A DNA stretch of 64,000 nt from Candidatus Methylomirabilota bacterium (GTDB taxonomy: Bacteria; Methylomirabilota; Methylomirabilia; Rokubacteriales; CSP1-6), in assembly GCA_035650715.1 (NCBI GenBank), contig DASRHC010000004.1:85160-149159 (forward strand). The letters run 5' to 3'. Below, piece after piece: positions 1-14,987 of this stretch (position 1 is the first letter of the stretch; every line of letters starts with the position of its first letter). The position numbers and the translations under genes are program-made. The notes under the pieces are model-generated. The model saw only the letters and a list, made by a program, of their open reading frames with translations. It ran no database searches and was not told the DNA's origin.

Positions 1-3000
1 AGCGTGCCCTCCACCAGCAGGAACGACTCGTTCACCAGCGAGAGCCGGTGCTGGTGGAAGAGCGCGGGCCGGACGATCACGTTGATCAGCCCGGTCTCGT
101 CCTCCAGGTTGAGGAAGACGAACCCCTTGGCGGTGCCCGGCCGCTGGCGCACCACCACCGCGCCCGCCACCTTCACCCACGCCCCGTGACGGAAGGCGGC
201 GAGATCCGCCGCCCGCGACACGCCCATGCGCAGGAGCCGGCCCCGCCGGAACGCCATCGGGTGCGGCCCGAGGGTGAGGCCGGTGCCGTCGTAGTCGGCG
301 AGCAGCCGCTCCTCCGCGCTCATGGGCCGGAGCGGTGAGGCCTCGCGGGGGGCGGGCAGATCCTCGTAGAGATCGCCCGCGGGCCGCCCCGCCCGCTCCG
401 CCGCCCAGAGGGCCGCCCGGCGCTCCGGCTCCAGGCTGCCCAGCGCCCCCACCCGCGCCAGCTGCGCCACCTCGTCGCGCCGGAGCCGGCCGCGCCGGAC
501 CACGTCCTCGACCGAGTCGAACGGCCGCCGCGCGCGCTCGGCCTCGAGCCGTCGGCCCGCGTCCTCGCGCAAGCCGCGCACGTAGCGCAGCCCCAGGCGC
601 ACCGCCCCCCCGGTCGATCCCGGTGAACCGCCCGCGTCTTCGCCCACATCTTCGATGGTGCACAGCCAGCCCGAGAAGTTGACGTCGGGGGGACGGATGA
701 CCTGCCCGTGTCGGCCCGCGTCGTTGACGATGGTGGCGGGATCGTAGAAGCCCATCGGCTGGTTGTTCAGCAGCGCGGCGTAGAAGGCGGCCGGGTGGTG
801 CGTCTTGAGATAGGCGCTCCCGTAGGCCAGCAGGGCGAAGCTGGCCGCGTGCGACTCCGGGAAGCCGTAGAGCGCGAACGCGGTGATGGAGGCGATGACG
901 GCCTCGGCGGCGGCGCCTGCGATGCCCTTCCGGGCCATGCCCGCGCGAAGCTTCACCTCCACCTCCTTCATGGCGCGCTCCGAACGCTTGAACCCGAAGG
1001 CGCGGCGCAGCTCCTCGGCCTCGCCGCCGGTGAAGCCGGCGGCGGCCATCGCCATGCGCAGCAGCTGCTCCTGGAAGAGCGGGACGCCGAGCGTGCGGCG
1101 CAGGATGGGCTCGAGGTCCGGATGCGGCACCGTGATGGCCTCGCGGCCCGCGCGGCGGCGCAGATAGGGATGCACCATGTCGCCCACGATGGGGCCGGGC
1201 CGGATGATCGCCACCTGCACCACCAGGTCGTAGAAGCGCTCCGGGCGCAGGCGCGGCAGCGTCGCCATCTGGGCGCGGCTCTCGACCTGGAACACCCCGA
1301 TGGTGTCGGCCTCCTGCAGCATGCGGTAGACCGCGGGGTCCTGGGGCAGATGGGCCAGGTCCACCGCCCCGCCCCGGCGGCGGATCATCTCGAGCGCGTC
1401 CTGCAGCAGCGACATCATGCCGAGCCCGAGCAGGTCGACCTTCACGATGCCGAGCGCGGCGCAGTCGTCCTTGTCCCACTGCACCACGCTGCGCCCGGGC
1501 ATGGTGGCGGGCTCGAGCGGCACCACCCCGTCGAGGCGCCCCTGGGCGATCACCATGCCGCCCGAGTGCTGGCCGAGATGCCGCGGCAGGTCCTGGATCG
1601 CGGTCCACAGGCGCGCGAAGTCCTGCATGCGGGGCTCGGCCGGATCGCATCCCGCCTCCCCGAGGTGCGCGAGCAGGCTGTCGCCGGGGTCGGTGTACTC
1701 CCACGTGCTCACCAGCTGCGAGAGCCGCTCGATCACGTCCGGGGGCAGGCCGAGGACCTTGCCGACCTCGCGGGCGGCGCTGCGCCCGCGATAGGTGATG
1801 ACGTTGGCGGTCATGGCCGCGCCCAGGCGGCCGTAGCGCTCATAGACGTACTGGATCACCTGCTCGCGGCGGTCGCCGCTCGGCAGGTCGAGATCGATGT
1901 CGGGCCACTCCCCGCGCTCCTCGGAGAGGAAGCGCTCGAAGAGCAGCTCCATCCCCACCGGGTCCACCGCGGTGAGGCCGAGCGCGTAGCAGACCGCGCT
2001 GTTGGCCGCGGAGCCGCGTCCCTGCACCAGCACCCCGTGCGCGCCGCAGTACTGCACGATGTCCCACACGATGAGGAAGTAGCCCGCGAGATCCAGGCGA
2101 CCGATCACGTTCAGCTCGTGCTCGATCTGCCGGCGCGCCCTCTCCGCGAGGGGCCCCGAGCCGTACCGCCTCCGCGCCCCCGCCTCGGCGAGCGTTCGCA
2201 GGAAGCCGATGGGCGTCTCCCCGCGCGGCAGCGGATAGTCCGGAAAGCGATAGCCCAGGTCCTTGAGGGTGAAGCCGAGGCGCATCGCGAGCTCGCCGGT
2301 GTTGGCCACCGCTTCCGGGCAATCCGCGAAGAGCCGCTCCATGGCCGGCCCGCTCTGCATGAAGTGCTCGCTGTTGCGCGCGAGCCGCCGGCCCGCCTGC
2401 TCGAGCGTCACGTGCTCGCGGATGCACGTGAGCACGTCCAGCAGCGGCCGGTCGCGCCGCGCGACGAGGCGCGGCTCGTTGGTGGCCAGCGGGGCGAGGC
2501 GAAGCCGGGCCGCCTCCCCCCGCAGCCAGTCGTTGCGCGCCTCCTCCGGGCGGCTCAGGTGCCGCTGCAGCTCCGCGAAGACGTTGGAGCGGCCGTAGAT
2601 CGAGACCAGCCGCTCGAGGAGCCGCCGGCCCCCGGGCGCGCCCTCGCGCGCGAGCGCGGCGGCGACCGGTCCGCGGCCGCCCCCGGTGAGGCACACGAGC
2701 CCGCCCGCGAACTCCGCGAGCTCGTCCAGCGTGGCCGCGCCCGCGCCCTTGGCCGCGCGCATCTTGATGCGGGTGAGCAGCCGGCAGAGGTTCTGGTAGC
2801 CCTCGCGATCCTCGACCAGCAGCGGCAGCCGGCTGCCGTCGGTGAGCGTGACCTCCGCGCCCACCCGCGCGGAGATGCCGAGCCGGGTGCACGCGCGATA
2901 GAGCCGCGGGGCGCCGTAGACGCCGTCGGCGTCCAGCAGCGCGATGGCGGGCTGCCCGAGCGCGGCGGCCCGCTCGGCCAGCGCCTCCGGCAGGACCGCC

Positions 3001-3047
3001 GCCTCCAGGAAGCTGAAGGCGCTCCGGGCGTGCAGCTCGACGAACAC
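1..3047 (-). CDS. dnaE2: Error-prone DNA polymerase III alpha subunit DnaE2 (ImuC), partial. The C-terminal part lies beyond the window start.
   Basis: The minus strand in the imuB frame reads AVFVELHARSAFSFLEAAVLPEALAERAAALGQPAIALLDADGVYGAPRLY, the DnaE2 PHP-domain N-terminus. Mid-gene translation gives the DnaE-like VIAQGRLDGVVPLEPATM. No in-window stop, so it is absent from the ORF track. The start is probably GTG near 3047, just after the imuB stop. The plus-strand ORF 708..3092 is its antisense artefact. Confidence 0.8.
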   Translation of the reverse strand, partial: MFVELHARSAFSFLEAAVLPEALAERAAALGQPAIALLDADGVYGAPRLYRACTRLGISARVGAEVTLTDGSRLPLLVEDREGYQNLCRLLTRIKMRAAKGAGAATLDELAEFAGGLVCLTGGGRGPVAAALAREGAPGGRRLLERLVSIYGRSNVFAELQRHLSRPEEARNDWLRGEAARLRLAPLATNEPRLVARRDRPLLDVLTCIREHVTLEQAGRRLARNSEHFMQSGPAMERLFADCPEAVANTGELAMRLGFTLKDLGYRFPDYPLPRGETPIGFLRTLAEAGARRRYGSGPLAERARRQIEHELNVIGRLDLAGYFLIVWDIVQYCGAHGVLVQGRGSAANSAVCYALGLTAVDPVGMELLFERFLSEERGEWPDIDLDLPSGDRREQVIQYVYERYGRLGAAMTANVITYRGRSAAREVGKVLGLPPDVIERLSQLVSTWEYTDPGDSLLAHLGEAGCDPAEPRMQDFARLWTAIQDLPRHLGQHSGGMVIAQGRLDGVVPLEPATMPGRSVVQWDKDDCAALGIVKVDLLGLGMMSLLQDALEMIRRRGGAVDLAHLPQDPAVYRMLQEADTIGVFQVESRAQMATLPRLRPERFYDLVVQVAIIRPGPIVGDMVHPYLRRRAGREAITVPHPDLEPILRRTLGVPLFQEQLLRMAMAAAGFTGGEAEELRRAFGFKRSERAMKEVEVKLRAGMARKGIAGAAAEAVIASITAFALYGFPESHAASFALLAYGSAYLKTHHPAAFYAALLNNQPMGFYDPATIVNDAGRHGQVIRPPDVNFSGWLCTIEDVGEDAGGSPGSTGGAVRLGLRYVRGLREDAGRRLEAERARRPFDSVEDVVRRGRLRRDEVAQLARVGALGSLEPERRAALWAAERAGRPAGDLYEDLPAPREASPLRPMSAEERLLADYDGTGLTLGPHPMAFRRGRLLRMGVSRAADLAAFRHGAWVKVAGAVVVRQRPGTAKGFVFLNLEDETGLINVIVRPALFHQHRLSLVNESFLLVEGT

Positions 3048-3119
3048 GGCGTCACCGCCCGGGCGGTGCCGACAGCCGGGACGACGGCGTGAAGCCGCGG
3101 AACGCGACGTGGGTGGACA

Positions 3120-4433
3120 TCAGTCATAGACGCCGGCCAGGAGCCAGGCGGAGCCGTCGTGGGCCAGGCGGCAGAGCGTGCCGTCGGCCAGCTCCACGTC
3201 CCACTCGTCCTGCAGCCACGGATGAGGGGTCCACCACTCGCCCGACACCCGCCACGGGCCGACCCCGGCCACGATGCGCCCCCCGAGGCGACTCGATCGC
3301 AGCGCGACCGGCCGCCCCGATGCGACGGTGACCGCGGCGGGCGCGGGCGGGCGGAAGCGGCGGAGGGCGAGGACCGGGCCCCTCACCCTGCCCTCTCCTC
3401 GGTGGGGAGAGGTCGAGCCCCGGCGGGGAGGAGCAGATGTCCCTCGGCGGAGAGAGAGCGGGGCATAGGCGCCCAGGCCCACCGCGTCGGGGCGATGGCT
3501 GTCGAGCAGCGTCGGGGCGCCGACGCGGTCCGGGCCCACCAGCGCCACCAGGCGGTTCATGGTGGCCTCGAGGAAGCGCGGGCTCGGACGCGAAGGATCC
3601 GTGAACGACTCCTGCGCGGCGGCCGCACGGGTGGGGCGCACGCGCAGGACGATCGCGCGCACGATGCCGCGCGGCGGCCGGCCCTCGAGGGCCAGGCGCA
3701 GCAAGGCGGTCACCGCGCCGGACTCGGTCAGCGGCACCGCGGGCGTGAGCGCGCCCTCGTGCGCGCGTCCGTCGGCGAGCCGGCACGTCCACTCGAAGCC
3801 GTCGGCGGCCAGGCCGCGCGCGGCCAGTCTGGCGCAGAGGCGCTCGGCCATCGCCCCGAGCCGCTCCATCAGCGGCCCGAGCGCCTCGAGGCCCCACTCG
3901 CACTCGACCGACTCCTCGAAGACCGGCCCCGGCCGCCAGGCGCTGAGAGGCCGTGGGTCGTCGCCGCGGGCCAGCCGCTGGGCCCGGACGCCCTCGGCGC
4001 CGGCCCGCTCGAAGAGCCCCGTGGTCGGCAGCGCCGCCAGCTCGCCCATGGTCCGCAGGCCCCACCGCTCCAAGCGGGTGGCGAGCTCCTCCGATATCGG
4101 CAGCAGCGAGAGCGGTGCCGGGGCCAGCGCGGCCGCGTCGCCATCGGGCTCGACGATGGCGACCCCGGCACCGAGACGGGCCGCCACCAGCGCGGCGAGA
4201 CGGCTGCCGGCAACGCCCACCCGGATCGAGAAGCCCTCCGCGAGGGCGGCGGCGCGGAGCCGCTCGGCGAGGGTGGGCTCGTCGCCGAAGAGGCCCTCGA
4301 GTCCCGCCGCATCGAGATAGACGCAAGTGCTCGCTTCTTCGACACGAGGAGAATGTGCGAGCGCGACCTGGAGCAGGGCCCCCGGCGGGGGGAGCGACGG
4401 AGCCTCGGGGAGCAGGCAGCCGATGCGGCTCAC
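3120..4433 (-). CDS. imuB: ImuB, the Y-family-polymerase-like protein of the imuA-imuB-dnaE2 mutagenesis cassette
   Basis: 437 aa. N-terminus MSRIGCLLPEAP resembles Y-family MRRIACLWLPDFPL. Y-family-like VYLDAAGLEGLFGDEPTLAERLRAAALAEGFSIRVGVAGSRLAALVAARLG. C-terminal ImuB-like SGEWW motif. Sits immediately upstream of dnaE2 in the same frame. Confidence 0.7.
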   Translation of the reverse strand: MSRIGCLLPEAPSLPPPGALLQVALAHSPRVEEASTCVYLDAAGLEGLFGDEPTLAERLRAAALAEGFSIRVGVAGSRLAALVAARLGAGVAIVEPDGDAAALAPAPLSLLPISEELATRLERWGLRTMGELAALPTTGLFERAGAEGVRAQRLARGDDPRPLSAWRPGPVFEESVECEWGLEALGPLMERLGAMAERLCARLAARGLAADGFEWTCRLADGRAHEGALTPAVPLTESGAVTALLRLALEGRPPRGIVRAIVLRVRPTRAAAAQESFTDPSRPSPRFLEATMNRLVALVGPDRVGAPTLLDSHRPDAVGLGAYAPLSLRRGTSAPPRRGSTSPHRGEGRVRGPVLALRRFRPPAPAAVTVASGRPVALRSSRLGGRIVAGVGPWRVSGEWWTPHPWLQDEWDVELADGTLCRLAHDGSAWLLAGVYD

Positions 4434-5110
4434 GCGCCCCTCCGGTCACCGGCGCACCCGGCGCCGGAAGGCACGTCCTGAAGACTCCACTCGACCGCCC
4501 AGTGCCCCTCCCCCTGCCCTCTCCCCGGAGAGGAGAGGGTGGAGATGCGGACGCGGGTGATGGCGATCTCCGAGCGAAGACCGGCCAGCCGGGTGAGCGG
4601 TCGCAGGCCCATCCACTGCGGGCCGAGCCGTCGCGTGGTCAGCACCAGGGAGGCGGGGCTCCCCTCGCGGTGCCGGGCCACGCGGAGGATCAGGATCGTG
4701 TCGGTGTCCTCCACCGCCCGCTGCAGGCGGATGCACGTGGAGGCGGGCACCGGCCCCAGATCATCGAGGTCCAGCACGACCAGGGCAAAGCCCGGGCAGC
4801 GGGCCAGCAGGTCGGCGGCGCCGAGGGCCACCCGGAGGCGGCCGCCGCAGCGCACCCAGAGCAGCGCCGAGAGATCGGCGCCGGCCGCCGCAGCGGAATC
4901 GGGATCGAGCGAGTCGGTGGCGTCCACGAAGGCCACCTGTCCACCGGCCGTCGTGATGCGGGCGATGAGGGCCAGGAGCAGGCTGCTGGCTCCGGAGGAG
5001 CGGGAACCGACGACCTCGCTGAGCCGGCCCGGCGGAAACAGCCCGAGCAGGCCGTCGATCCCCTCGCGCTCCCACCCTGGCGGGGGTGAGGACTCGATCG
5101 GGATGCCCAT
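4430..5110 (-). CDS. imuA: ImuA, a RecA-fold SulA/ImuA-family protein
   Basis: 226 aa with a RecA-like core GRLSEVVGSRSSGASSLLLALIARITTAGGQVAFVDATDSLDP. Its stop abuts the imuB start. The 3' end contains a REP-like GC-rich palindrome sequence. Confidence 0.6.
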   Translation of the reverse strand: MGIPIESSPPPGWEREGIDGLLGLFPPGRLSEVVGSRSSGASSLLLALIARITTAGGQVAFVDATDSLDPDSAAAAGADLSALLWVRCGGRLRVALGAADLLARCPGFALVVLDLDDLGPVPASTCIRLQRAVEDTDTILILRVARHREGSPASLVLTTRRLGPQWMGLRPLTRLAGLRSEIAITRVRISTLSSPGRGQGEGHWAVEWSLQDVPSGAGCAGDRRGA

Positions 5111-5198
5111 CGCCTCGATTACACGTCACCTGTTAAGTATATTTCAACAACAAGATACAGGGGCTCAGGGGGGACACCGGCCCCAGATAGAGGGCCGA
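5111..5198 (-). promoter_or_regulatory. Candidate promoter/operator (possible SOS box) upstream of imuA
   Basis: A ~45-nt AT-rich island in a 70% GC background. Read toward imuA it is TTGAAA-N18-TGTAAT-N7-ATG with GAGG. It carries the imperfect palindrome TGTTAAG-TATAT-TTCAACA. imuA-imuB-dnaE2 cassettes are typically LexA-regulated. Confidence 0.3.
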
Positions 5199-5615
5199 CT
5201 ACCGCTGCACGCGCCGGCCGACCCGCCAGCGCACAAGGGCGACGTAGGCCACCGCGTACACCAGCACGCCGGCCACATTGCTCCAGGCCATCGCCCACAT
5301 CGTCGAGCCGGCCGCGTACCGGGTGAACCCCTCGTACGCGAAGATGCTGAGGAAGATCCCGGACGGCGCCATCAGCAGCGCCGCGACGATGCGCGGCGCC
5401 GAGCCGCGCGTGACCGCCCAGGGGGCCAGCAGCAGGCCGGCCTGCGAGACCAGGCCCATCACCCCGAAGATGGCGAGGCTGATCAGGTCCGTGCGCTCCG
5501 GCTCCGAGGCGCGCCCGAACCCATAGGCCGCGCTGGCGAAGGCCGCCGCCAGCGACAGTCCGGTCAGCCACGTGAGCACGAAGAAGACGACGAAGACGCG
5601 CTGGCGATCAGCCAA
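5199..5615 (-). CDS. Small integral membrane protein, hypothetical
   Basis: 138 aa with about four hydrophobic helices rich in W/Y/F. Composition is clean, unlike the overlapping ORFs. Confidence 0.5.
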   Translation of the reverse strand: MADRQRVFVVFFVLTWLTGLSLAAAFASAAYGFGRASEPERTDLISLAIFGVMGLVSQAGLLLAPWAVTRGSAPRIVAALLMAPSGIFLSIFAYEGFTRYAAGSTMWAMAWSNVAGVLVYAVAYVALVRWRVGRRVQR

Positions 5616-6216
5616 GCCAGGGCATCTCCGCGCGGCGGCGGGCCTCGAAGGCCTCGATGGCCGGCATCTGCTCGAGGGTCAGCGCCAGCTCGTCCCGCCC
5701 GGTGAGCAGCCCGTGCTTGCGGAATCCGTCGACCTCGAAGTGGATGGCGGCCCCGTCCGGCCCGGTGATGGTCTGCGCCTCCAGGTCCACCGTGAGCGCG
5801 GTGCCGGGCCGGGCCGCGAGCGTCTGCCGGAGCGCGGCCGCGGTCGCGGCCGGCACCACGATGGGCAGCGCGCCGTTCTTGAAGCAGTTCTCGAAGAAGA
5901 TGTCGCCGAAGCTCGGGCCGATGAGCACCCGGATGCCGTGATCGAGCAGCGCCCACACCGCCATCTCGCGCGAGGAGCCGCAGCCGAAGTTCTCGGCGGT
6001 CACCAGGATGCGCGCCGGCCGGTAGGCGGGCCGGTTCAGCACGAACTCCGGCCGCTCCGTCCCGCTCGCGTCGAAGCGCACGTCGTGGAAGAGCAGCGGC
6101 CCGAAGCCGCTCTCGCGCGGCCGCCGCAGGAAGCGCGCCGGGATGATGCGGTCGGTATCGATGTTGGGCAGGTCCATCGGGGCCGCCACCGCGGTGAGCC
6201 GGACGAAGGGCTCCAT
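5608..6216 (-). CDS. leuD: 3-isopropylmalate dehydratase small subunit
   Basis: 202 aa closely resembling E. coli LeuD: NIDTDRIIPARFL, ENFGCGSSRE, DVDLEAQ, FEVDGFRKH. Confidence 0.9.
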   Translation of the reverse strand: MEPFVRLTAVAAPMDLPNIDTDRIIPARFLRRPRESGFGPLLFHDVRFDASGTERPEFVLNRPAYRPARILVTAENFGCGSSREMAVWALLDHGIRVLIGPSFGDIFFENCFKNGALPIVVPAATAAALRQTLAARPGTALTVDLEAQTITGPDGAAIHFEVDGFRKHGLLTGRDELALTLEQMPAIEAFEARRRAEMPWLG

Positions 6217-8692: not shown

Positions 8693-9595
8693 ATGCCATT
8701 CGCCGACGTCGCCGGGATCAGGCTGTTCTACGAGGAGGTCGGCGAGGGCGTCCCGCTGATCTTCGTCCACGAGTTCGCGGGGGACCACCGGAGCTGGCAC
8801 CTGCAGGTGCGATGCTTCTCGCGCCGCTACCGCACCATCGCCTACAACGCCCGCGGCTATCCACCCTCGGACGTGCCGGAGGACCCGGGCGCCTACTCGC
8901 AGGACCGCGCCGCCGACGACATCCTGGGCATCCTCGATCACCTGAAGATCCCGCAGGCCCACGTGTGCGGGCTCTCGATGGGCGGCTACGCGACGCTCCA
9001 CTTCGGCCTGCGCCATCCCGAGCGCGCGCGGTCGCTCACGGTGGCGGGGGCCGGCTACGGCAGCGTGCCCGGCGAGCGCGAGCGCTTCCGCAAGGACGTG
9101 GAGGAGACCGCGCGCCTCTTCGAGACCGAGGGCATGGCCGGGGTGGCCGCCTTCTACACCAAGGGCCCCACCCGGGTCCAGTTCATGGACAAGGACCCCA
9201 AGGGCTGGCAGGAGTTCTACGACCAGTTCGTGGCCCAGTCCGCCCGCGGGCACGCGCTCACCATGCGCGGCGTCCAGATGTCGCGGCCGTCCATCTTCGA
9301 CCTCGGGCCGGCGATGGAGCGCCTGGAGGTGCCCACGCTGATCATGACCGGCGACGAGGACGAGCCCTGCCTCGAGCCCGCGCTCTACATGAAGCGCAAG
9401 ATCCGCTCCTCGGGGCTGGTGGTGATCCCCAAGGCCGGCCACACCATCAACCTGGAGGACCCGGACCTCTTCAATCGTGCGCTGCTCGACTTCCTCACCG
9501 CGGTGGACGCGGGACGCTGGCCGCTGCGCAACCCGGCCTCGCTGAGCGGCTCCGCGATCATGCCCGCCTCCATGAAGCCGGGAGCCGCACGATGA
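8693..9595 (+). CDS. Alpha/beta hydrolase fold protein
   Basis: Starts MPFADVAGIRLFYEEVGEG inside ORF 8438..9595. Has a GLSMGG nucleophile elbow. Divergent from the leuCD operon. Confidence 0.8.
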   Translation: MPFADVAGIRLFYEEVGEGVPLIFVHEFAGDHRSWHLQVRCFSRRYRTIAYNARGYPPSDVPEDPGAYSQDRAADDILGILDHLKIPQAHVCGLSMGGYATLHFGLRHPERARSLTVAGAGYGSVPGERERFRKDVEETARLFETEGMAGVAAFYTKGPTRVQFMDKDPKGWQEFYDQFVAQSARGHALTMRGVQMSRPSIFDLGPAMERLEVPTLIMTGDEDEPCLEPALYMKRKIRSSGLVVIPKAGHTINLEDPDLFNRALLDFLTAVDAGRWPLRNPASLSGSAIMPASMKPGAAR

Positions 9596-10874: not shown

Positions 10875-11666
10875 GTGAGAGAGAACGCGCTGAAGAAGAT
10901 CTGGGCCAAGGGCGAGGCGGTGGTGAACGGCTGGCTGTCGATCCCGAGCGGCTTCTCGGCCGAGGTGATGGCGCACCAGGGCTTCGACTCGCTCACCATC
11001 GACATGCAGCACGGCGTGGTCGACTACCAGGTGGCGGTGAGCATGCTCCAGGGCATCTCCACCCTCGCGGTGGTGCCGCTGGCCCGCGTGCCGTGGAACG
11101 ATCCGGCGCGCCTCATGAAGATCCTCGACGCGGGCGCGTACGGGGTCATCTGCCCCATGATCAACACCGCCAAGGAGGCGGAGGCGATGGTGCGGGCCTG
11201 CAAGTACCCACCGCGCGGCTATCGCAGCTGGGGGCCGGTGCGCGCCTCGCTCTACGCGGGCTCCGACTACGGCGACCACGCCAACGTGGAGACCATCGTG
11301 ATGCCGATGATCGAGACCGCGGAGGCGCTCAAGAATCTGGACGAGATCCTGAGCGTGGACGGCGTGGACGCCATCTACGTGGGCCCGTCCGACCTGAGCC
11401 TGGCCCTGGGCCTCAAGCCGCGCCTGGACCAGACCGATCCCCCGGTGGTGGAGGCCCAGCGGAAGATCGCGGCGGCGTGCCAGCGGCACAACGTGGTGGC
11501 GGGCATCCACAACGCCACCGCGACCTACGCCCTCAAGATGATCGCGGAGGGCTACCAGTTCGTGACCCTCGCGAGCGACAGCCGGCACATGGCGGCCAAG
11601 GCCGCCGAGGAGGTCGGCATCGTGCGCAAGACCGGCACCAAGACGGGCAGGCTCCCGGCCTACTAG
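10875..11666 (+). CDS. HpcH/HpaI-family class II aldolase (2-keto-3-deoxy-sugar-acid aldolase-like)
   Basis: 263 aa starting GTG with a GGAGAG RBS. Has DSLTIDMQHG and MIETAEAL. Confidence 0.85.
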   Translation: MRENALKKIWAKGEAVVNGWLSIPSGFSAEVMAHQGFDSLTIDMQHGVVDYQVAVSMLQGISTLAVVPLARVPWNDPARLMKILDAGAYGVICPMINTAKEAEAMVRACKYPPRGYRSWGPVRASLYAGSDYGDHANVETIVMPMIETAEALKNLDEILSVDGVDAIYVGPSDLSLALGLKPRLDQTDPPVVEAQRKIAAACQRHNVVAGIHNATATYALKMIAEGYQFVTLASDSRHMAAKAAEEVGIVRKTGTKTGRLPAY

Positions 11667-12289
11667 TGCCGGCGCTCCTCGACGACGCGCTGCTGGAGCG
11701 GGCGCGCGCCCACCTGGGGGCCTTCGAGCGCGTGCCCCTGCCCGACGACGGGCGGCGGCGCGCCGCGGTGGCCCAGGTGCTGGTGGCCGACGACGACGGC
11801 CGCGCGTGCTTCCTCATCACCCGGCGCGCTGCCACCCTGCGCAACCACACCGGCCAGTGGGCCCTGCCCGGCGGCCGCATCGACACCGGCGAGACCGCGG
11901 AGGACGCGGCGCTGCGGGAGCTGCGCGAGGAGGTCGGCCTCACCCTGGAGGCGGGCGCGGTGCTGGGGCTGCTCGACGACTACGGCACGCGCTCCGGCTA
12001 CATCATCACGCCGGTGGTGGTGTGGGGCGGCGCGGTGGGCGCGCTGGTGCCGAACCCGGCCGAGGTGGCCAGGGTCTTCCGGGTGCCCCTCGACGATCTC
12101 GAGGGCCCGGACGTGCCCCGGCTCGTCTCGATCCCGGAGTCGGATCGCCCGGTCATCCAGCTCCCGCTGCTCGGCACGCTGATCCACGCGCCGACCGCGG
12201 CGGTCGTCTACCAGATGCGCGAGGTCGTCGTCCACGGACGGCCCACGCGCGTGAGTCACTTCGAGCAGCCGGTGTGGGCCTGGCGGTGA
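11666..12289 (+). CDS. NUDIX hydrolase, CoA pyrophosphatase-like
   Basis: GTG start overlaps the aldolase stop (TAGTG), in frame with ORF 10190..12289. Nudix box GGRIDTGETAEDAALRELREEVGL. Confidence 0.75.
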   Translation: MPALLDDALLERARAHLGAFERVPLPDDGRRRAAVAQVLVADDDGRACFLITRRAATLRNHTGQWALPGGRIDTGETAEDAALRELREEVGLTLEAGAVLGLLDDYGTRSGYIITPVVVWGGAVGALVPNPAEVARVFRVPLDDLEGPDVPRLVSIPESDRPVIQLPLLGTLIHAPTAAVVYQMREVVVHGRPTRVSHFEQPVWAWR

Positions 12290-12318
12290 GCGCCGGGCGT
12301 CCCGGGCGGAGGAGCGGC

Positions 12319-13107
12319 ATGGGCGTTCTCGACGGGCAGGTCGCGATCATGACGGGCGGCGGCAGCGGCATCGGCCGCGCGGCGGCGCTGATGCTGGCCG
12401 CCGAGGGCGCGCAGGTGGTGGTGGCGGGCCGGCGCAAGGCGCCGATCGAGGCGGTCGCGGCCGAGATCGCCCGCGCGGGCGGCCGCGGGATCGCGCGCGT
12501 GTGCGACGTGGAGAAGCCCGCGGAGGCGCGCGGCCTCGCGGAGTGGACCATCGGCCAGTGCGGCCGCGTCGACATCCTGGTCAACAACGCGGGGCACTCG
12601 AGCCGGGCCCGCAACATCCGCTGGGTCGGCCAGGAGGAGTGGGACAGCGTGCTCGCGGTGAACCTGACCGGGGTCTACGCGCTCACCCAGGCGGTGCTGC
12701 CCGGCATGATCGAGCGCGGGGGCGGCACCATCATCACGGTCAGCTCGCTGGCCGCGCTCAAGCCCGGGCTGATCGGCGGGGCGCCCTATGGCGCCGCCAA
12801 GGCCGGGGTGCGGAACCTGATGGGCCACGTCCACACCGTGCTGCGCGAGAAGGGCATCCGCGCGACCACCATCATGCCCGCCGAGGTCGACACCCCGATC
12901 CTCGACAACCGCCCCCTGCGGCCCGACGCGCAGGCCCGGGCGACGATGATGCAGGCCGAGGACGTGGCGCGCGCCATCCTGCTCTGCGCCACCCTGCCCC
13001 CGCGCACCGTGATCGAGGAGATCGTGATGAGCCCGACGATCCTGCGGGATCAGTCCGCGGACATCCGGATCGCGCGCGACGAGGGGGCGCCGCCGGGGGC
13101 GCGGTAG
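12319..13107 (+). CDS. SDR-family oxidoreductase
   Basis: Starts MGVLDGQVAIMTGGGSGIGRA inside ORF 11806..13107. Has NNAG, YGAAKAG and GIR motifs. A GGAG lies upstream. Confidence 0.85.
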   Translation: MGVLDGQVAIMTGGGSGIGRAAALMLAAEGAQVVVAGRRKAPIEAVAAEIARAGGRGIARVCDVEKPAEARGLAEWTIGQCGRVDILVNNAGHSSRARNIRWVGQEEWDSVLAVNLTGVYALTQAVLPGMIERGGGTIITVSSLAALKPGLIGGAPYGAAKAGVRNLMGHVHTVLREKGIRATTIMPAEVDTPILDNRPLRPDAQARATMMQAEDVARAILLCATLPPRTVIEEIVMSPTILRDQSADIRIARDEGAPPGAR

Positions 13108-13138
13108 GCCGAGACCGCGGAGGTGCCCGGGGCCGGAT

Positions 13139-13606
13139 TCACCGGCCCAGCGAGGCCTGCTGCACGCGGTTGCGGAAGCCGATGGGGTCGCGCACGCGGC
13201 GGAAGACCTCGCGGGCCCCGCCGGTGCCGGTCACGATCAAATCGCCGAAGCCCAGCATGCGGCCGATCAGCCCTTGCTGGATGCCGATGCTCTCCACCTT
13301 GGAGAGGAGCAGCTCGGTGGTGTAGCGCGAGATGAGCCCCACCTTGAGGATGAGGCGGCTGGTGGTCACCGCGAACTCGGAGGTCATCAGCTCCACGTAG
13401 TGCACCAGCGCCCAGGCGGCCCCGATCACCACGACGCCCGCGCCGATCAGCCAGATCCAGGGCGGATCCTGCACCGGCCGCAGCACGACGGCGAGCGCGA
13501 TCCCCGCGATGATCACCAGGGCCGGCCGCAGGAAGAGGATCCAGTGCAGCCGCGTCTTGTACACGACGCGCTCCCCCTCCAGCAGGTGCCGCTCCACGTA
13601 CCCCAC
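13139..13606 (-). CDS. Membrane protein with bacterial PH domain (DUF304 / YdbS-like)
   Basis: 155 aa with two TM helices followed by a PH-like region. Confidence 0.7.
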   Translation of the reverse strand: MGYVERHLLEGERVVYKTRLHWILFLRPALVIIAGIALAVVLRPVQDPPWIWLIGAGVVVIGAAWALVHYVELMTSEFAVTTSRLILKVGLISRYTTELLLSKVESIGIQQGLIGRMLGFGDLIVTGTGGAREVFRRVRDPIGFRNRVQQASLGR

Positions 13607-13622
13607 GCGCCCAGCCTAGCGC

Positions 13623-13706
13623 GGGGTCAGGTCTTACATTCCTACATTTTCGGCGGCGGGGCGGCGGGGGGCGGAAGAGAAATGTCGGAATGTAAGACCT
13701 GACCCC
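13623..13706. repeat. Inverted-repeat element copy 2. 25-bp arms (one mismatch in the left arm) with a 34-nt GC-rich loop.
   Basis: Seen directly. Overlaps the 3' end and stop codon of the gamma-CA-like gene and lies 17 nt upstream of the PH-domain gene start. Confidence 0.9.
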
Positions 13707-14208
13707 GGTAGTCGCGGTGCCAGAGGTCGAGGTACTCGGTGGCGTTGCGGGCGATGTCGTCGAGCTCCTCCTGGCTCATCTTGCGCACCGGCTTGGCCGG
13801 GACGCCCATGACCAGCCAGCCCGACGGCACCACCTTGCCCGGCGGGACCACCGCGCCCGCCCCCACCTGCGCCCACTCCTCGATCACCGCGCCGGTGAGC
13901 ACCACCGCCCCGATGCCGATGCGCACGTTGTCCATCACCCGGCAGGCGTGCACCACCGCCCGGTGGCCGATCGTCACGTTGGCCCCCACGATGCACGGGA
14001 ACTGGGGCGTCACGTGCAGCACCGAGTTGTCCTGGACGTTGGAGTTGCGACCGAGCACGACGTAGTTGTCCTGGTCGCCCCGCAGCACGGTGAAGGGCCA
14101 CACGCTCGCGCCCGCCTCGATCGTCACGTCGCCGATGACCTGCGCGGCCGGATCCACGTAGGCCTCCGGGTGCACCCGCGGCGTCCGCCCCGGCACCGAG
14201 CGGATCAC
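13642..14208 (-). CDS. Gamma-carbonic-anhydrase-like hexapeptide-repeat protein (PaaY/CaiE family)
   Basis: GTG start overlaps the crotonase stop (GTGA). Reads MIRSVPGRTPRVHPEAYVDPAAQVIGDVTIEAGASVWPFTVLRGD... The C-terminal tail [20 protein letters not shown] and the stop are encoded by the inverted-repeat element. Confidence 0.8.
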   Translation of the reverse strand: MIRSVPGRTPRVHPEAYVDPAAQVIGDVTIEAGASVWPFTVLRGDQDNYVVLGRNSNVQDNSVLHVTPQFPCIVGANVTIGHRAVVHACRVMDNVRIGIGAVVLTGAVIEEWAQVGAGAVVPPGKVVPSGWLVMGVPAKPVRKMSQEELDDIARNATEYLDLWHRDYRGQVLHSDISLPPPAAPPPKM

Positions 14209-14987
14209 CGGCCGCTCCAGCGCGCGGGGCGCTTGTCGAGAAAGGCCCGCACGCCCTCGTGGAAGTCGGCGCTGGTGTAGGTCCACGCGATCAGATCCTC
14301 GTCCTCGGGGAGCGCCCGGCTGCGCGCCAGGCGCCGGATGGCCTCCTTGGTGACCGCCAGCGTGATCGGCGCGTGCTCGGCGATCTGCCGGGCCAGCGCG
14401 GCCACCCGCGCCGCGATGTCCTCCGGCGGCACGATCTCGTGGACGTAGCCGGCCGCGCGCGCCTCCTCGGCCCCGAGCAGACGCGCGGTGAAGAGCAGCT
14501 CGGTGACCCGCGAGGGCCCGAACACGTCCACCAGGCGCGCGTAGGCCGCCATCGACAGGCAGTTGCCGAGCGTGCGGGCGATGGGCGCGCCGAACCGGGC
14601 GTCGGGCGTGGCCACGCGGATGTCGCACGCGGTCGCGATCCGGAAGCCGCCGCCCACCGCGACGCCCTCGATCTGGGCGATCACCGGCTTGTTCACCGAC
14701 TCGAGCCGCGCGATGCGGCGATCGCCGTCGCGCTCGTAGGCGATGCCGTCCTCGGCGCGCTCGAACACCTGGAACTGGCTGATGTCCGTGCCGGCCACGA
14801 ACGCCTTGCCGCCCGCCCCGCGGAGCACCAGCACCCGGACGGAGTCGTCGGCGTCGACCTCCTCGCACACCTGGTAGAGCCGGTCGTACATCGCCCACGT
14901 CATGGCGTTGCGCGCGGCGGGCCGGTTGAAGGTGAGCGTCATCACCGGCCCCTCGCGGGTGACCAGCGTCTCGTCTTGCGTCGGCAC
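14205..14987 (-). CDS. Enoyl-CoA hydratase/isomerase family protein (crotonase)
   Basis: GTG start with a GGGAGG RBS 8 nt upstream. Reads MPTQDETLVTREGPVMTLTFNRP, with AFVAGTDISQF and VAVGGG. Confidence 0.85.
   Translation of the reverse strand: MPTQDETLVTREGPVMTLTFNRPAARNAMTWAMYDRLYQVCEEVDADDSVRVLVLRGAGGKAFVAGTDISQFQVFERAEDGIAYERDGDRRIARLESVNKPVIAQIEGVAVGGGFRIATACDIRVATPDARFGAPIARTLGNCLSMAAYARLVDVFGPSRVTELLFTARLLGAEEARAAGYVHEIVPPEDIAARVAALARQIAEHAPITLAVTKEAIRRLARSRALPEDEDLIAWTYTSADFHEGVRAFLDKRPARWSGR

What the first reader, a model, noticed from the sequence alone, without database searches (positions are those of the whole stretch)
1..5198. imuA-imuB-dnaE2 mutagenesis cassette with an atypically short ImuB and an AT-rich candidate operator
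The window opens inside dnaE2 (minus strand, truncated by the window edge). It is preceded by imuB and imuA with abutting stop/start codons, which is the classic LexA-controlled translesion cassette. Compared with typical ImuB, roughly 70 N-terminal residues appear to be missing: MSRIGCLLPEAP joins almost directly to the FSPRVE/VYLD region. Immediately upstream of imuA is a ~45-nt AT-rich island in 70% GC DNA carrying the palindrome TGTTAAG-TATAT-TTCAACA plus sigma-70-like hexamers. This is a candidate SOS operator of unknown class. No lexA gene lies in the window.
Basis: partly seen in the sequence, partly recalled or inferred. Interest (0 to 1): 0.5.

Follow-up and report, generated by a model that had tools for sequence, protein, structure and literature searches.

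The report
Rokubacterial mutasome operon and its operator
This is an ordinary DNA-damage mutagenesis operon (imuA-imuB-dnaE2) from an uncultured soil bacterium; its short ImuB is a trait of a whole clade rather than a local deletion, and its promoter holds a conserved 20-bp repressor site that looks like an undescribed variant of the LexA (SOS) box.

Summary
The cassette is real. dnaE2 runs from 3047 to the window edge, imuB is 3120-4433 and imuA is 4430-5110, all on the minus strand, in a Methylomirabilota (Rokubacteria) MAG.

ImuB does lack about 65-70 N-terminal residues, the Y-family fingers region. More than 120 homologues and 35 of 60 classified genome loci share this. Sister Rokubacteria keep the long form, and Acidobacteriota have separate short forms. 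It is a recurrent lineage trait, and deletions in ImuB are already noted in the literature.

One arm is the -35 region and is not conserved. The element conserved across 50 Rokubacterial imuA promoters is a 20-bp dyad at 5120-5139, YACT-MRWC-ANNT-GWYK-WGYN. It fills the spacer between TTGAAA and TGTAAT. Its core (CT-MAAC-N4-GTTK-AG) has the geometry of the GAAC-N4-GTTC and Myxococcus LexA boxes.

The same -35/dyad/-10 layout precedes an unrelated conserved 160-aa gene in three Rokubacteria-like contigs, so a trans-acting regulator with at least two targets is likely.

I could not retrieve a Rokubacterial lexA or recA, so the LexA assignment is inferred, at about 0.6. Interest is modest.

The parts
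1..3047 (-). dnaE2 (error-prone DNA polymerase III alpha homologue). The 5' 3045 nt are in the window. It starts at GTG 3047 and is truncated by the window edge (full length 1046 aa).
   Evidence: Frame and start. NCBIfam NF004225 at 1220 bits (cut-off 939), plus Pfam PHP, DNA_pol3_alpha, finger, HHH_6 and OB domains. Full gene called in L001 at 11387-14527.
3048..3119 (-). 72-nt imuB-dnaE2 spacer with no recognised element.
   Evidence: Spacer length varies from -1 to more than 400 nt among 58 related loci. No Rfam match.
3120..4433 (-). imuB, short ('fingerless') form, 437 aa, GTG start overlapping the imuA stop. It is an inactive Y-family polymerase homologue that retains the C-terminal half of the palm, the thumb, the little finger and the conserved C-terminal WW/ImuB-C-like region.
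   Evidence: DinB residues 93-274 align to ImuB 26-192, and the DinB D103/E104 positions are not acidic; homologues are 420-460 aa with the same N-terminus; a block of about 65-70 aa is absent relative to long-form sisters.
4430..5110 (-). imuA, a RecA-fold accessory protein of 226 aa with ATG start. The P-loop reads GSRSSGAS, so the Walker A lysine is missing.
   Evidence: Pfam RecA 1.1e-12. NCBIfam ImuA 9e-9 and ImuA' (Rv3395c) 5e-5, both below their cut-offs. MT3502_N weak hit. The N-terminus aligns from residue 1 with relatives.
5118..5123 (-). Probable -10 hexamer TGTAAT. It ends 7 nt before the imuA ATG, which suggests a leaderless or near-leaderless mRNA.
   Evidence: Read. Conserved as TGTAAT (group 1) or TAGCAT (group 2) in 50 promoters. 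Not called by the strict scan.
5120..5139 (-). Conserved 20-bp dyad operator, TACTTAACAGGTGACGTGTA on the minus strand. Family consensus is YACT-MRWC-ANNT-GWYK-WGYN. It is a candidate LexA box.
   Evidence: A2, C3, T4, C8, T12, G13 and G18 are invariant in the 32 representative sites and at least 0.96 in the 46 non-redundant promoters; the two arms mirror each other; no other site of at least 13 bits in 948 kb of Rokubacterial DNA.
5142..5147 (-). Probable -35 hexamer TTGAAA, with an 18-nt spacer to TGTAAT.
   Evidence: Read. A TTG lies 0-2 nt upstream of the dyad in 45 of 50 promoters.
5131..5149 (.). It is a composite of the left arm of the true dyad and the -35 region.
   Evidence: One search shows it is present and unique in the window. 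Searches show the TGTT arm is not conserved outside the nearest relatives.
5199..5615 (-). Upstream neighbour: a 138-aa hydrophobic ORF with no family match. It is not part of the cassette. Its stop lies 88 nt upstream of imuA.
   Evidence: Conserved upstream of imuA in 15 related loci. GC3 is 0.95.

Best explanation
The region is the 5' end of a functional imuA-imuB-dnaE2 translesion 'mutasome' operon of a Methylomirabilota (Rokubacteria) bacterium.

DnaE2 is the polymerase. ImuA is an ATPase-dead RecA-like adaptor. ImuB is a catalytically dead Y-family scaffold that, in this clade, has lost the fingers subdomain. It keeps the parts needed for its scaffold role: thumb, little finger and C-terminal domain.

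The operon is read from a sigma-70-type promoter, TTGAAA-N18-TGTAAT, whose -10 lies 7 nt from the ATG, so the mRNA is probably leaderless. The whole -35/-10 spacer and part of the -10 are occupied by a 20-bp dyad (5120-5139). A dimeric repressor bound there would exclude RNA polymerase. The repressor is most likely LexA, so the operon would be induced when RecA-stimulated LexA self-cleavage follows DNA damage.

Shown: gene identities, the deletion and its phylogenetic spread, conservation and symmetry of the dyad, and its reuse at a second gene. Inferred: promoter function, repression, the identity of the repressor, and leaderless translation.
For: Gene identities.

Organism: a 100%-identical protein is named 'Methylomirabilota bacterium'. 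Related loci are Rokubacteria/Methylomirabilota MAGs.

Short ImuB as a clade trait:
- 120 listed homologues of at least 67% identity are all 414-460 aa.
- The distance from the start to SPRVE is 18-34 aa in 35 loci and 92-126 aa in 25 loci.
- Long forms are basal or nested in the Rokubacterial clade, and Acidobacterial short forms are separate.
- GC3 of 0.90 and invariant C-terminal motifs argue for a working gene.

Operator:
- In 46 non-redundant promoters, information is confined to positions -17 to +22 around the dyad.
- Arm frequencies mirror each other: position 5 is C/A and position 16 is G/T; position 6 is A/G and position 15 is T/C; C3 pairs with G18, C8 with G13 and A9 with T12.
- The dyad sits 0-2 nt after the -35 hexamer and overlaps the -10.
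- The same layout, TTGACA-N-YACTCWWCAWTTGTTTAGTN, precedes an unrelated conserved 160-aa gene in L159, L237 and L238. Their tetranucleotide profiles correlate at 0.976-0.987 with Rokubacteria.

LexA likeness:
- The core CT-MAAC-N4-GTTK-AG has the geometry of Firmicutes CGAACRNRYGTTYC and M. xanthus CTRHAMRYBYGTTCAGS (PMC2248561 table 5; PMC9705874).
- A Myxococcus-type lexA promoter fetched here reads TACTGAACA on its reverse strand, identical to the Rokubacterial left arm except at position 5.
- imuA-imuB-dnaE2 belongs to the minimal LexA regulon core across phyla (PMC4951493, citing Erill 2006).
- Acidobacterial imuA genes in the same data set carry a different LexA-box-like repeat at the same place.
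Against: - No Rokubacterial lexA or recA could be retrieved, so co-occurrence of the dyad at core SOS genes is untested.
- No further site occurs in 948 kb of Rokubacterial DNA. That fits a very small regulon or a dedicated regulator equally well.
- The second target gene has no known link to DNA damage.
- A near-identical palindrome, TACTAAACACATGTTTAGTA, lies between divergent TetR-family and TauD-like genes in non-Rokubacterial contigs. Regulators other than LexA can therefore use this kind of sequence.
- The window's own right arm (GACG..TGTA) is a poor mirror of the left arm.
- The strict sigma-70 scan finds no promoter.
- The AlphaFold model of ImuB is too poor (pLDDT 52) to confirm which subdomains remain.
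Confidence: 0.6

Rival explanations
1. The dyad is the operator of a regulator other than LexA, for example a TetR-, XRE- or MarR-family repressor. That regulator would control a small Rokubacteria-specific regulon that includes imuA-imuB-dnaE2 and the 160-aa gene. Induction would then follow a ligand or another stress signal rather than RecA-mediated self-cleavage.
For: - Near-identical palindromes lie between divergent TetR-family and TauD-like genes in L172 and L215.
- There are no extra sites in 948 kb.
- The second target has unknown function and sits among metabolic genes.
- No lexA was found.
Against: - No regulator gene is conserved next to the cassette in 56 loci. A dedicated local regulator is usually adjacent to its target.
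- imuA-imuB-dnaE2 is LexA-controlled wherever it has been examined (PMC4951493, PMC9705874).
- The spacing and flanks of the dyad match the LexA-box lineage.
Confidence: 0.3
2. There is no repressor. The conserved block is only an unusually constrained promoter, for instance one with extended spacer contacts or one read by an alternative sigma factor.
For: The block coincides exactly with the -35 to -10 interval. T-rich sequence upstream resembles an UP element.
Against: - Spacer sequence is not normally conserved, yet seven spacer positions are invariant and arranged as a dyad whose arm frequencies mirror each other.
- The dyad's AAC (positions 6-8) lies only 8 nt upstream of the conserved -10 hexamer (positions 17-22), and positions 16-17 nt downstream of the AAC, where an ECF-type -10 would lie, are unconserved; an ECF-type -35 reading therefore fails.
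- The same dyad occurs with different -35 and -10 hexamers (TTGACA, TAGTAT) at another gene.
Confidence: 0.07
3. The short imuB is a decaying gene and the cassette is non-functional in this genome.
For: Loss of about 65-70 N-terminal residues. The Pfam IMS hit is below its gathering threshold.
Against: - The short form is conserved at 67-85% identity across more than 120 clusters with many invariant columns.
- It has a coding-type GC3 of 0.90.
- It keeps translational coupling to imuA.
- It recurs independently in Acidobacteriota.
- ImuB is catalytically dead in all systems, and reduced forms that retain thumb, little finger and ImuB-C are documented (PMC12926913).
Confidence: 0.03

Closest known systems
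LexA-regulated imuA-imuB-dnaE2 mutagenesis cassette (Erill et al. 2006; M. tuberculosis ImuA'-ImuB-DnaE2 mutasome; Caulobacter, Pseudomonas and Myxococcus systems)
   Same: The same three genes are in the same order and strand. imuA and imuB are translationally coupled. DnaE2 scores above the NCBIfam cut-off. ImuB is a Y-family homologue without catalytic acidic residues. ImuA is RecA-like without the P-loop lysine. A dyad lies in the promoter, where LexA boxes lie in other phyla.
   Different: ImuB lacks the fingers block. ImuA scores below the curated ImuA and ImuA' cut-offs. No lexA is adjacent. The promoter dyad differs from every published LexA motif I could check. The mRNA is probably leaderless.
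LexA boxes of the GAAC-N4-GTTC lineage: Firmicutes/Actinobacteria CGAACRNRYGTTYC and Myxococcus xanthus CTRHAMRYBYGTTCAGS (that is, CT-GAAC-N4-GTTC-AG)
   Same: Two tetramers are separated by 4 nt, flanked by CT and AG. The overall dyad is 16-20 bp and overlaps core promoter elements. The outer TACT...AGTA also matches the ends of the E. coli consensus TACTGTATATATATACAGTA (my own knowledge).
   Different: The first base of each tetramer is A/C (mirror G/T) instead of G (mirror C). The inner bases A9 and T12 are almost invariant. The second and third tetramer positions vary (MRWC). Binding by LexA is untested.
[quoted passage not shown]
   Same: [quoted passage not shown] The protein here fits that description.
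   Different: The paper surveyed complete genomes of cultured species. The Rokubacterial clade, the exact fingers-sized deletion and its recurrence in Rokubacteria and Acidobacteriota are worked out here. I did not check them against the paper's supplementary figure.

Membership tests
ImuA-ImuB-DnaE2 mutasome cassette | DnaE2-type error-prone C-family polymerase | tested here: met
   NCBIfam NF004225 at 1220 bits against a cut-off of 939, with the full set of Pfam Pol III alpha domains.
ImuA-ImuB-DnaE2 mutasome cassette | ImuB: Y-family polymerase homologue lacking the catalytic acidic residues | tested here: met
   Matches to Pol IV models and PDB chains over residues 26-263. DinB D103 is an insertion relative to ImuB and E104 aligns to Cys. 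The N-terminal Asp-bearing motif reads MSRIGCLL. JGI names homologues 'protein ImuB'. The Pfam IMS hit is below its gathering score (18.6 against 23.2).
ImuA-ImuB-DnaE2 mutasome cassette | ImuB C-terminal extension (RecA-NT motif plus ImuB-C beta-barrel) | tested here: inconclusive
   The C-terminal 80 residues are the most conserved part of the family (GPWRxSGEWW...DEWDVELADGTLCRLAxDGSAW). No model for ImuB-C was available, and the AlphaFold model is unreliable there (pLDDT 25-47).
ImuA-ImuB-DnaE2 mutasome cassette | ImuA: RecA-fold protein encoded immediately upstream of imuB | tested here: met
   Pfam RecA 1.1e-12. NCBIfam ImuA and ImuA' hits are below cut-off (35 bits against 150; 23 against 65). 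The imuA stop overlaps the imuB start by 4 nt.
ImuA-ImuB-DnaE2 mutasome cassette | DNA-damage-inducible mutagenesis | not testable with these tools
   The organism is uncultured and no expression data were available.
LexA (SOS) box | Dyad (or repeat) of two short half-sites with fixed spacing, conserved across orthologous promoters | tested here: met
   20-bp dyad in 50 imuA promoters. Seven positions are invariant and the arm frequencies mirror each other.
LexA (SOS) box | Overlaps core promoter elements so that binding blocks RNA polymerase | tested here: met
   The dyad begins 0-2 nt after the TTG hexamer and overlaps the -10. Promoter activity itself is inferred.
LexA (SOS) box | Present upstream of lexA itself and of other core SOS genes (recA, uvrA) in the same lineage | not testable with these tools
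   No Rokubacterial lexA or recA is in the window, the 239 loci or the protein hits. The only second target found is a gene of unknown function.
LexA (SOS) box | Bound by the lineage's LexA protein | not testable with these tools
   This needs an EMSA or footprint with Rokubacterial LexA.

The most novel reading that the evidence does not exclude
The 20-bp dyad TACT-MAAC-ANNT-GTTK-AGTA is the so far undescribed LexA-binding motif of Rokubacteria (Methylomirabilota). It would be a form intermediate between the Gram-positive GAAC-N4-GTTC, Myxococcus CTGAAC-N4-GTTCAG and gamma-proteobacterial TACTG-N10-CAGTA boxes. It would govern a very small SOS regulon that includes the mutasome operon and a conserved 160-aa protein of unknown function. 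In parallel, the repeated natural loss of the ImuB fingers subdomain would show that this part of the dead polymerase is dispensable for mutasome assembly.
Probability: 0.5. Interest if true: 0.45.

Novelty: new variant of a known kind. Interest (0 to 1): 0.3.

Why it matters
The cassette itself is textbook. Two points have some value.

First, LexA-binding motifs are a classic case of transcription-factor and operator co-evolution, and none is described for Rokubacteria/Methylomirabilota, an abundant uncultured soil phylum. A motif that shares its outer bases with the E. coli box and its inner AAC-N4-GTT core with the Gram-positive box would add a data point to the proposed evolutionary series of LexA boxes. 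It would also allow SOS regulons to be predicted in thousands of soil MAGs.

Second, the repeated and clean loss of the ImuB fingers block in two phyla is a natural deletion experiment. It agrees with current mutasome models, in which ImuB acts only as a scaffold through its thumb, little finger and C-terminal domain.

Neither point overturns current understanding.

Tried and rejected
1. Rejected: its TGTT arm is the -35 region and is not conserved.

2. Search for lexA and recA in the window and all fetched loci with E. coli LexA and RecA and with 20 diverse LexA proteins. No hits.

3. A consensus-LexA search of the 5.8-billion-protein set. No Methylomirabilota-labelled hit appeared. The candidates I followed were a Myxococcus-type lexA (L230-L233, M. 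xanthus-type box) and a GC-60% lexA-radA-recA operon (L236). Neither is Rokubacterial.

4. A metagenome scan with the idealised palindrome TACTMAWCANNTGWTKAGTA. Only L159 was useful.

5. A PWM scan of 948 kb of Rokubacterial DNA for further sites. Nothing exceeded the level seen in shuffled sequence.

6. A search for a regulator gene conserved next to the cassette. None was found.

7. Annotation of the rest of the window through contig look-ups. Only metabolic genes appeared. One look-up failed because the ORF start I chose did not match the called gene.

8. An AlphaFold model of the short ImuB. Mean pLDDT was 52, too low to use, so I did not run a fold search on it.

9. Function of the 160-aa co-regulated protein. 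There were no Pfam, NCBIfam or PHROG hits. The model has a beta-hairpin plus three helices, and no PDB fold match had E below 0.9.

10. Rfam on 3000-5700. Nothing had E below 0.6.

11. An ECF-sigma reading of the AAC motif. Rejected: the AAC lies only 8 nt upstream of the conserved -10 hexamer, and positions 16-17 nt downstream of it are unconserved.

12. The Erill et al. 2006 paper is not held in the library.

Full report
**What is in the sequence.**
On the minus strand the window opens inside a long ORF whose frame runs from a GTG at 3047 to the window edge. Its product scores 1220 bits on NCBIfam NF004225, 'error-prone DNA polymerase' (cut-off 939), and carries the PHP, Pol III alpha, finger, HHH and OB domains. 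The full gene is 1046 aa on the parent contig (L001).

Upstream lie a 437-aa ORF (3120-4433, GTG start) and a 226-aa ORF (4430-5110, ATG start). They overlap by 4 nt, GTGA.
- The 226-aa protein has a RecA fold: Pfam RecA 1.1e-12, with weak ImuA, ImuA' and MT3502_N hits. Its P-loop reads GSRSSGAS, so the Walker A lysine of RecA's GPESSGKT is absent. This is read from the sequence; the RecA motif is from my own knowledge.
- The 437-aa protein matches Pol IV models and PDB chains only from about DinB residue 87-128 onward. At the DinB D103/E104 catalytic pair it has no acidic residue.

This is therefore an imuA-imuB-dnaE2 cassette. That spacer varies from -1 to more than 400 nt in relatives and holds nothing recognisable.

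**Source organism.**
A 100%-identical ImuB is deposited as 'MAG TPA: Methylomirabilota bacterium'. The same contig, 165-170 kb long, recurs in several assemblies. The 80 related loci from GTDB species representatives are mostly Rokubacteria/Methylomirabilota, followed by Acidobacteriota. The rest of the window encodes metabolic genes and no SOS genes. tblastn with LexA and RecA queries finds nothing in the window or in any fetched locus.

**The short ImuB.**
Aligned with long-form proteins from sister Rokubacteria (L036, L042, L045 and others), the window protein lacks one clean block of about 65-70 residues. The block lies between strand beta1 (MSRIGCLL) and the helix ALLQVALAHSPRVE. In Y-family polymerases this interval is the fingers subdomain; the domain boundaries are from my own knowledge of Dpo4 and DinB.

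It is not peculiar to this genome.
- All 120 listed homologues of at least 67% identity are 414-460 aa long, and the 15 aligned all begin the same way.
- Among 60 classifiable genome loci, 35 are short (start to SPRVE is 18-34 aa) and 25 are long (92-126 aa).
- In a neighbour-joining tree of the shared region, the Rokubacterial short forms make up one clade. Long-form L036 is basal to it and long-form L042 is nested within it. Short forms in Solibacteraceae, Paludibaculum, Pyrinomonadaceae and Vicinamibacteria branch separately among long Acidobacterial forms.

The fingers block has thus been lost at least twice, and probably more often. The tree is a simple distance tree, so the exact number of losses is uncertain.

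The short gene looks functional. It has many invariant columns, a GC3 of 0.90 and coupling to imuA. [quoted passage not shown] LF and thumb' (PMC12926913). The trait is therefore a new instance of a described phenomenon. My AlphaFold model was too poor to add anything (pLDDT 52).

**The upstream region.**
The 88-nt interval between the upstream ORF's stop (5199) and the imuA ATG (5110) contains the AT-rich island. GC is 0.40 over 5111-5160, against about 0.72 for the surroundings. Only 5 of its 7 arm positions pair.

Comparison of 50 Rokubacterial imuA promoters (46 non-redundant) changes the picture.
- Conservation is confined to a block from about -17 to +22 around a 20-bp element. On the coding strand of the window this element reads TACTTAACAGGTGACGTGTA (5139 down to 5120).
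- Positions A2, C3, T4, C8, T12, G13 and G18 are invariant in the 32 representative sites and at least 0.96 in the 46 non-redundant promoters.
- The two arms mirror each other in their variability as well as in the fixed pairs (C3/G18, C8/G13, A9/T12). Position 5 is C or A and position 16 is G or T. Position 6 is A or G and position 15 is T or C.
- A TTG-led hexamer ends 0-2 nt before the dyad in 45 of 50 promoters. In the window it is TTGAAA, 5142-5147.
- A TAnnnT-like hexamer overlaps the right arm. It is TGTAAT in the window group (5118-5123) and TAGCAT in a second Rokubacterial group.

Its CTTAACA arm is the left arm of the real dyad. Its TGTTGAA arm is the -35 region, which changes to GGTTGCA, GCTTGAC and other forms in relatives.

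The strict sigma-70 scanner reports no promoter here, because TGTAAT lacks the A at position 2. The promoter assignment rests on conservation and spacing (16-18 nt).

In the window, and in the second group, the -10 ends 6-8 nt before the ATG and there is no usable Shine-Dalgarno sequence. This suggests a leaderless mRNA. Other group-1 relatives have 35-45-nt leaders.

**What the dyad is.**
A dyad that fills the -35/-10 spacer is the classic arrangement for a repressor that excludes RNA polymerase. Written as TACT-MAAC-ANNT-GTTK-AGTA, it has two tetramers 4 nt apart, flanked by CT and AG. This is the geometry of the Firmicutes/Actinobacteria LexA box CGAACRNRYGTTYC and of the M. xanthus box CTRHAMRYBYGTTCAGS, which amounts to CT-GAAC-N4-GTTC-AG (PMC2248561 table 5 and PMC9705874). 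The first tetramer base is A/C rather than G.

A Myxococcus-type lexA promoter that I fetched while looking for LexA reads TACTGAACA on its reverse strand. That is identical to the Rokubacterial left arm except at position 5. The imuA-imuB-dnaE2 operon belongs to the minimal LexA regulon core across phyla (PMC4951493, citing Erill 2006). In 19 of 23 Acidobacterial loci of the same data set, imuA is preceded by a different LexA-box-like element, the direct repeat GAAY-N7-GAAN.

**Is it used elsewhere?**
A PWM scan of 948 kb of Rokubacterial DNA found no further site above the level seen in shuffled sequence. No regulator gene is conserved beside the cassette.

One GC-69% contig (L159) carries TTGACA-g-TACTCATCAATTGTTTAGTA-TATAG upstream of a 160-aa ORF with a coding-type GC3 of 0.88. 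That protein defines a family of 71 soil-metagenome clusters.

Two further members with retrievable DNA keep the same layout:
- L237: TTGACAcTACTCTACAATTGTTTAGTCTAAG
- L238: TTGACAcCACTCTACATTTGTTTAGTGTAGG

A fourth member, in a prophage-like GC-64% context, does not.

The tetranucleotide profiles of L159, L237 and L238 correlate at 0.976-0.987 with the group-2 Rokubacteria reference. Held-out Rokubacterial contigs give 0.974-0.998, while the three contigs correlate at 0.90 with the Acidobacteria reference and 0.94-0.95 with the Myxococcus-type lexA contigs. L238's CydA is 63% identical to the window organism's.

The dyad therefore serves at least two unrelated transcription units. This points to a trans-acting regulator with a small regulon. 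The 160-aa protein has no family or fold match, so it says nothing about the signal.

**What remains open.**
I could not obtain a single Rokubacterial lexA or recA promoter. A consensus-LexA search returned no Methylomirabilota-labelled protein, and the candidates I followed belonged to other lineages.

A near-identical palindrome (TACTAAACACATGTTTAGTA) between divergent TetR-family and TauD-like genes in non-Rokubacterial contigs shows that such sequences are not exclusive to LexA.

My estimates are:
- 0.6 that the dyad is a LexA box
- 0.3 that it belongs to another repressor
- under 0.1 that it is only a promoter feature

**Verdict.**
The finding is a correctly recognised, ordinary mutasome cassette.
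- The 'atypically short ImuB' is real, but it is a recurrent clade-level trait of a kind already reported.
- The 'candidate operator' is real but was mis-delimited. The conserved element is the 20-bp dyad at 5120-5139, and it is best read as an undescribed variant of the GAAC-N4-GTTC/Myxococcus LexA-box lineage.

This is a new variant of a known kind, of modest interest. The regulator could be identified directly by scanning complete Rokubacterial genomes and by a LexA band-shift assay.

Noticed in passing
L052, L063-L090 (Acidobacteriota loci), 50-180 nt upstream of the imuA tblastn match: 19 of 23 Acidobacterial imuA genes are preceded by a direct repeat GAAY-N7-GAAN, for example GCGAACAAAAGGCGAATATG. 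This has the shape of the alpha-proteobacterial LexA box. It often runs straight into the ATG, so those transcripts may be leaderless too.
   Followed up: partly
window 5108-5123; also L046-L066 around locus positions 9120-9160: The putative -10 hexamer ends 6-8 nt before the imuA start codon and there is no usable Shine-Dalgarno sequence. This suggests leaderless imuA mRNA in the window organism and in group-2 Rokubacteria. Other group-1 relatives have 35-45-nt leaders.
   Followed up: partly
L159 9120-9730 (minus strand); L237 9880-10492; L238 1540-2112: A conserved 160-aa protein family (P0241-P0308; a beta-hairpin plus a three-helix bundle; no Pfam, NCBIfam, PHROG or PDB match) carries the same -35/dyad/-10 promoter as imuA in three Rokubacteria-like contigs. 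It is a candidate co-regulated gene of unknown function.
   Followed up: yes
L172 4583-4602; L215 602-621: A near-perfect palindrome, TACTAAACACATGTTTAGTA or TACTCAACATGTGTTTAGTA, lies between divergent TetR-family and TauD-like dioxygenase genes in GC-63% non-Rokubacterial contigs. It is presumably a TetR-type operator that resembles the dyad studied here.
   Followed up: partly
L015, L017, L021, L022, L024, L025, L036, L038, L047: GTDB representative MAGs labelled Verrucomicrobiia, Dormiibacterota, Nitrosotalea (an archaeon), Acidoferrum, Limnocylindria, Deferrimicrobiaceae and Binatia carry Rokubacteria-type cassettes. For the five of these loci profiled (L015, L017, L021, L022, L036), tetranucleotide profiles correlate at 0.98-0.997 with Rokubacteria. 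These are probably mis-binned contigs or wrong labels.
   Followed up: partly
L230 about 5900-5950; L232 about 5900-5950: lexA genes of a GC-70% lineage (one record is labelled Deltaproteobacteria) have a Myxococcus-type LexA box, cgATACgagtGTTCAGTA, downstream of a TTGACC -35.
   Followed up: partly
L236 5668-9065: A GC-60% contig has an apparent lexA-radA-recA operon next to minCDE and dnaA. The palindrome ACTCATATGAGC lies just after a TTGACA -35. It is possibly another undescribed LexA box.
   Followed up: no
window 5199-5615 (minus strand): A 138-aa hydrophobic ORF with no family match lies between leuD and imuA. It is conserved at that position in 15 related loci and has a GC3 of 0.95, so it is a real gene of unknown function.
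   Followed up: partly
L238 2126-4649 (minus strand): An XPB-like helicase (with an XPB_DRD domain) and a DUF790 (Bax1-like nuclease) gene pair lies convergent with the 160-aa gene. No dyad is present upstream of this pair.
   Followed up: no
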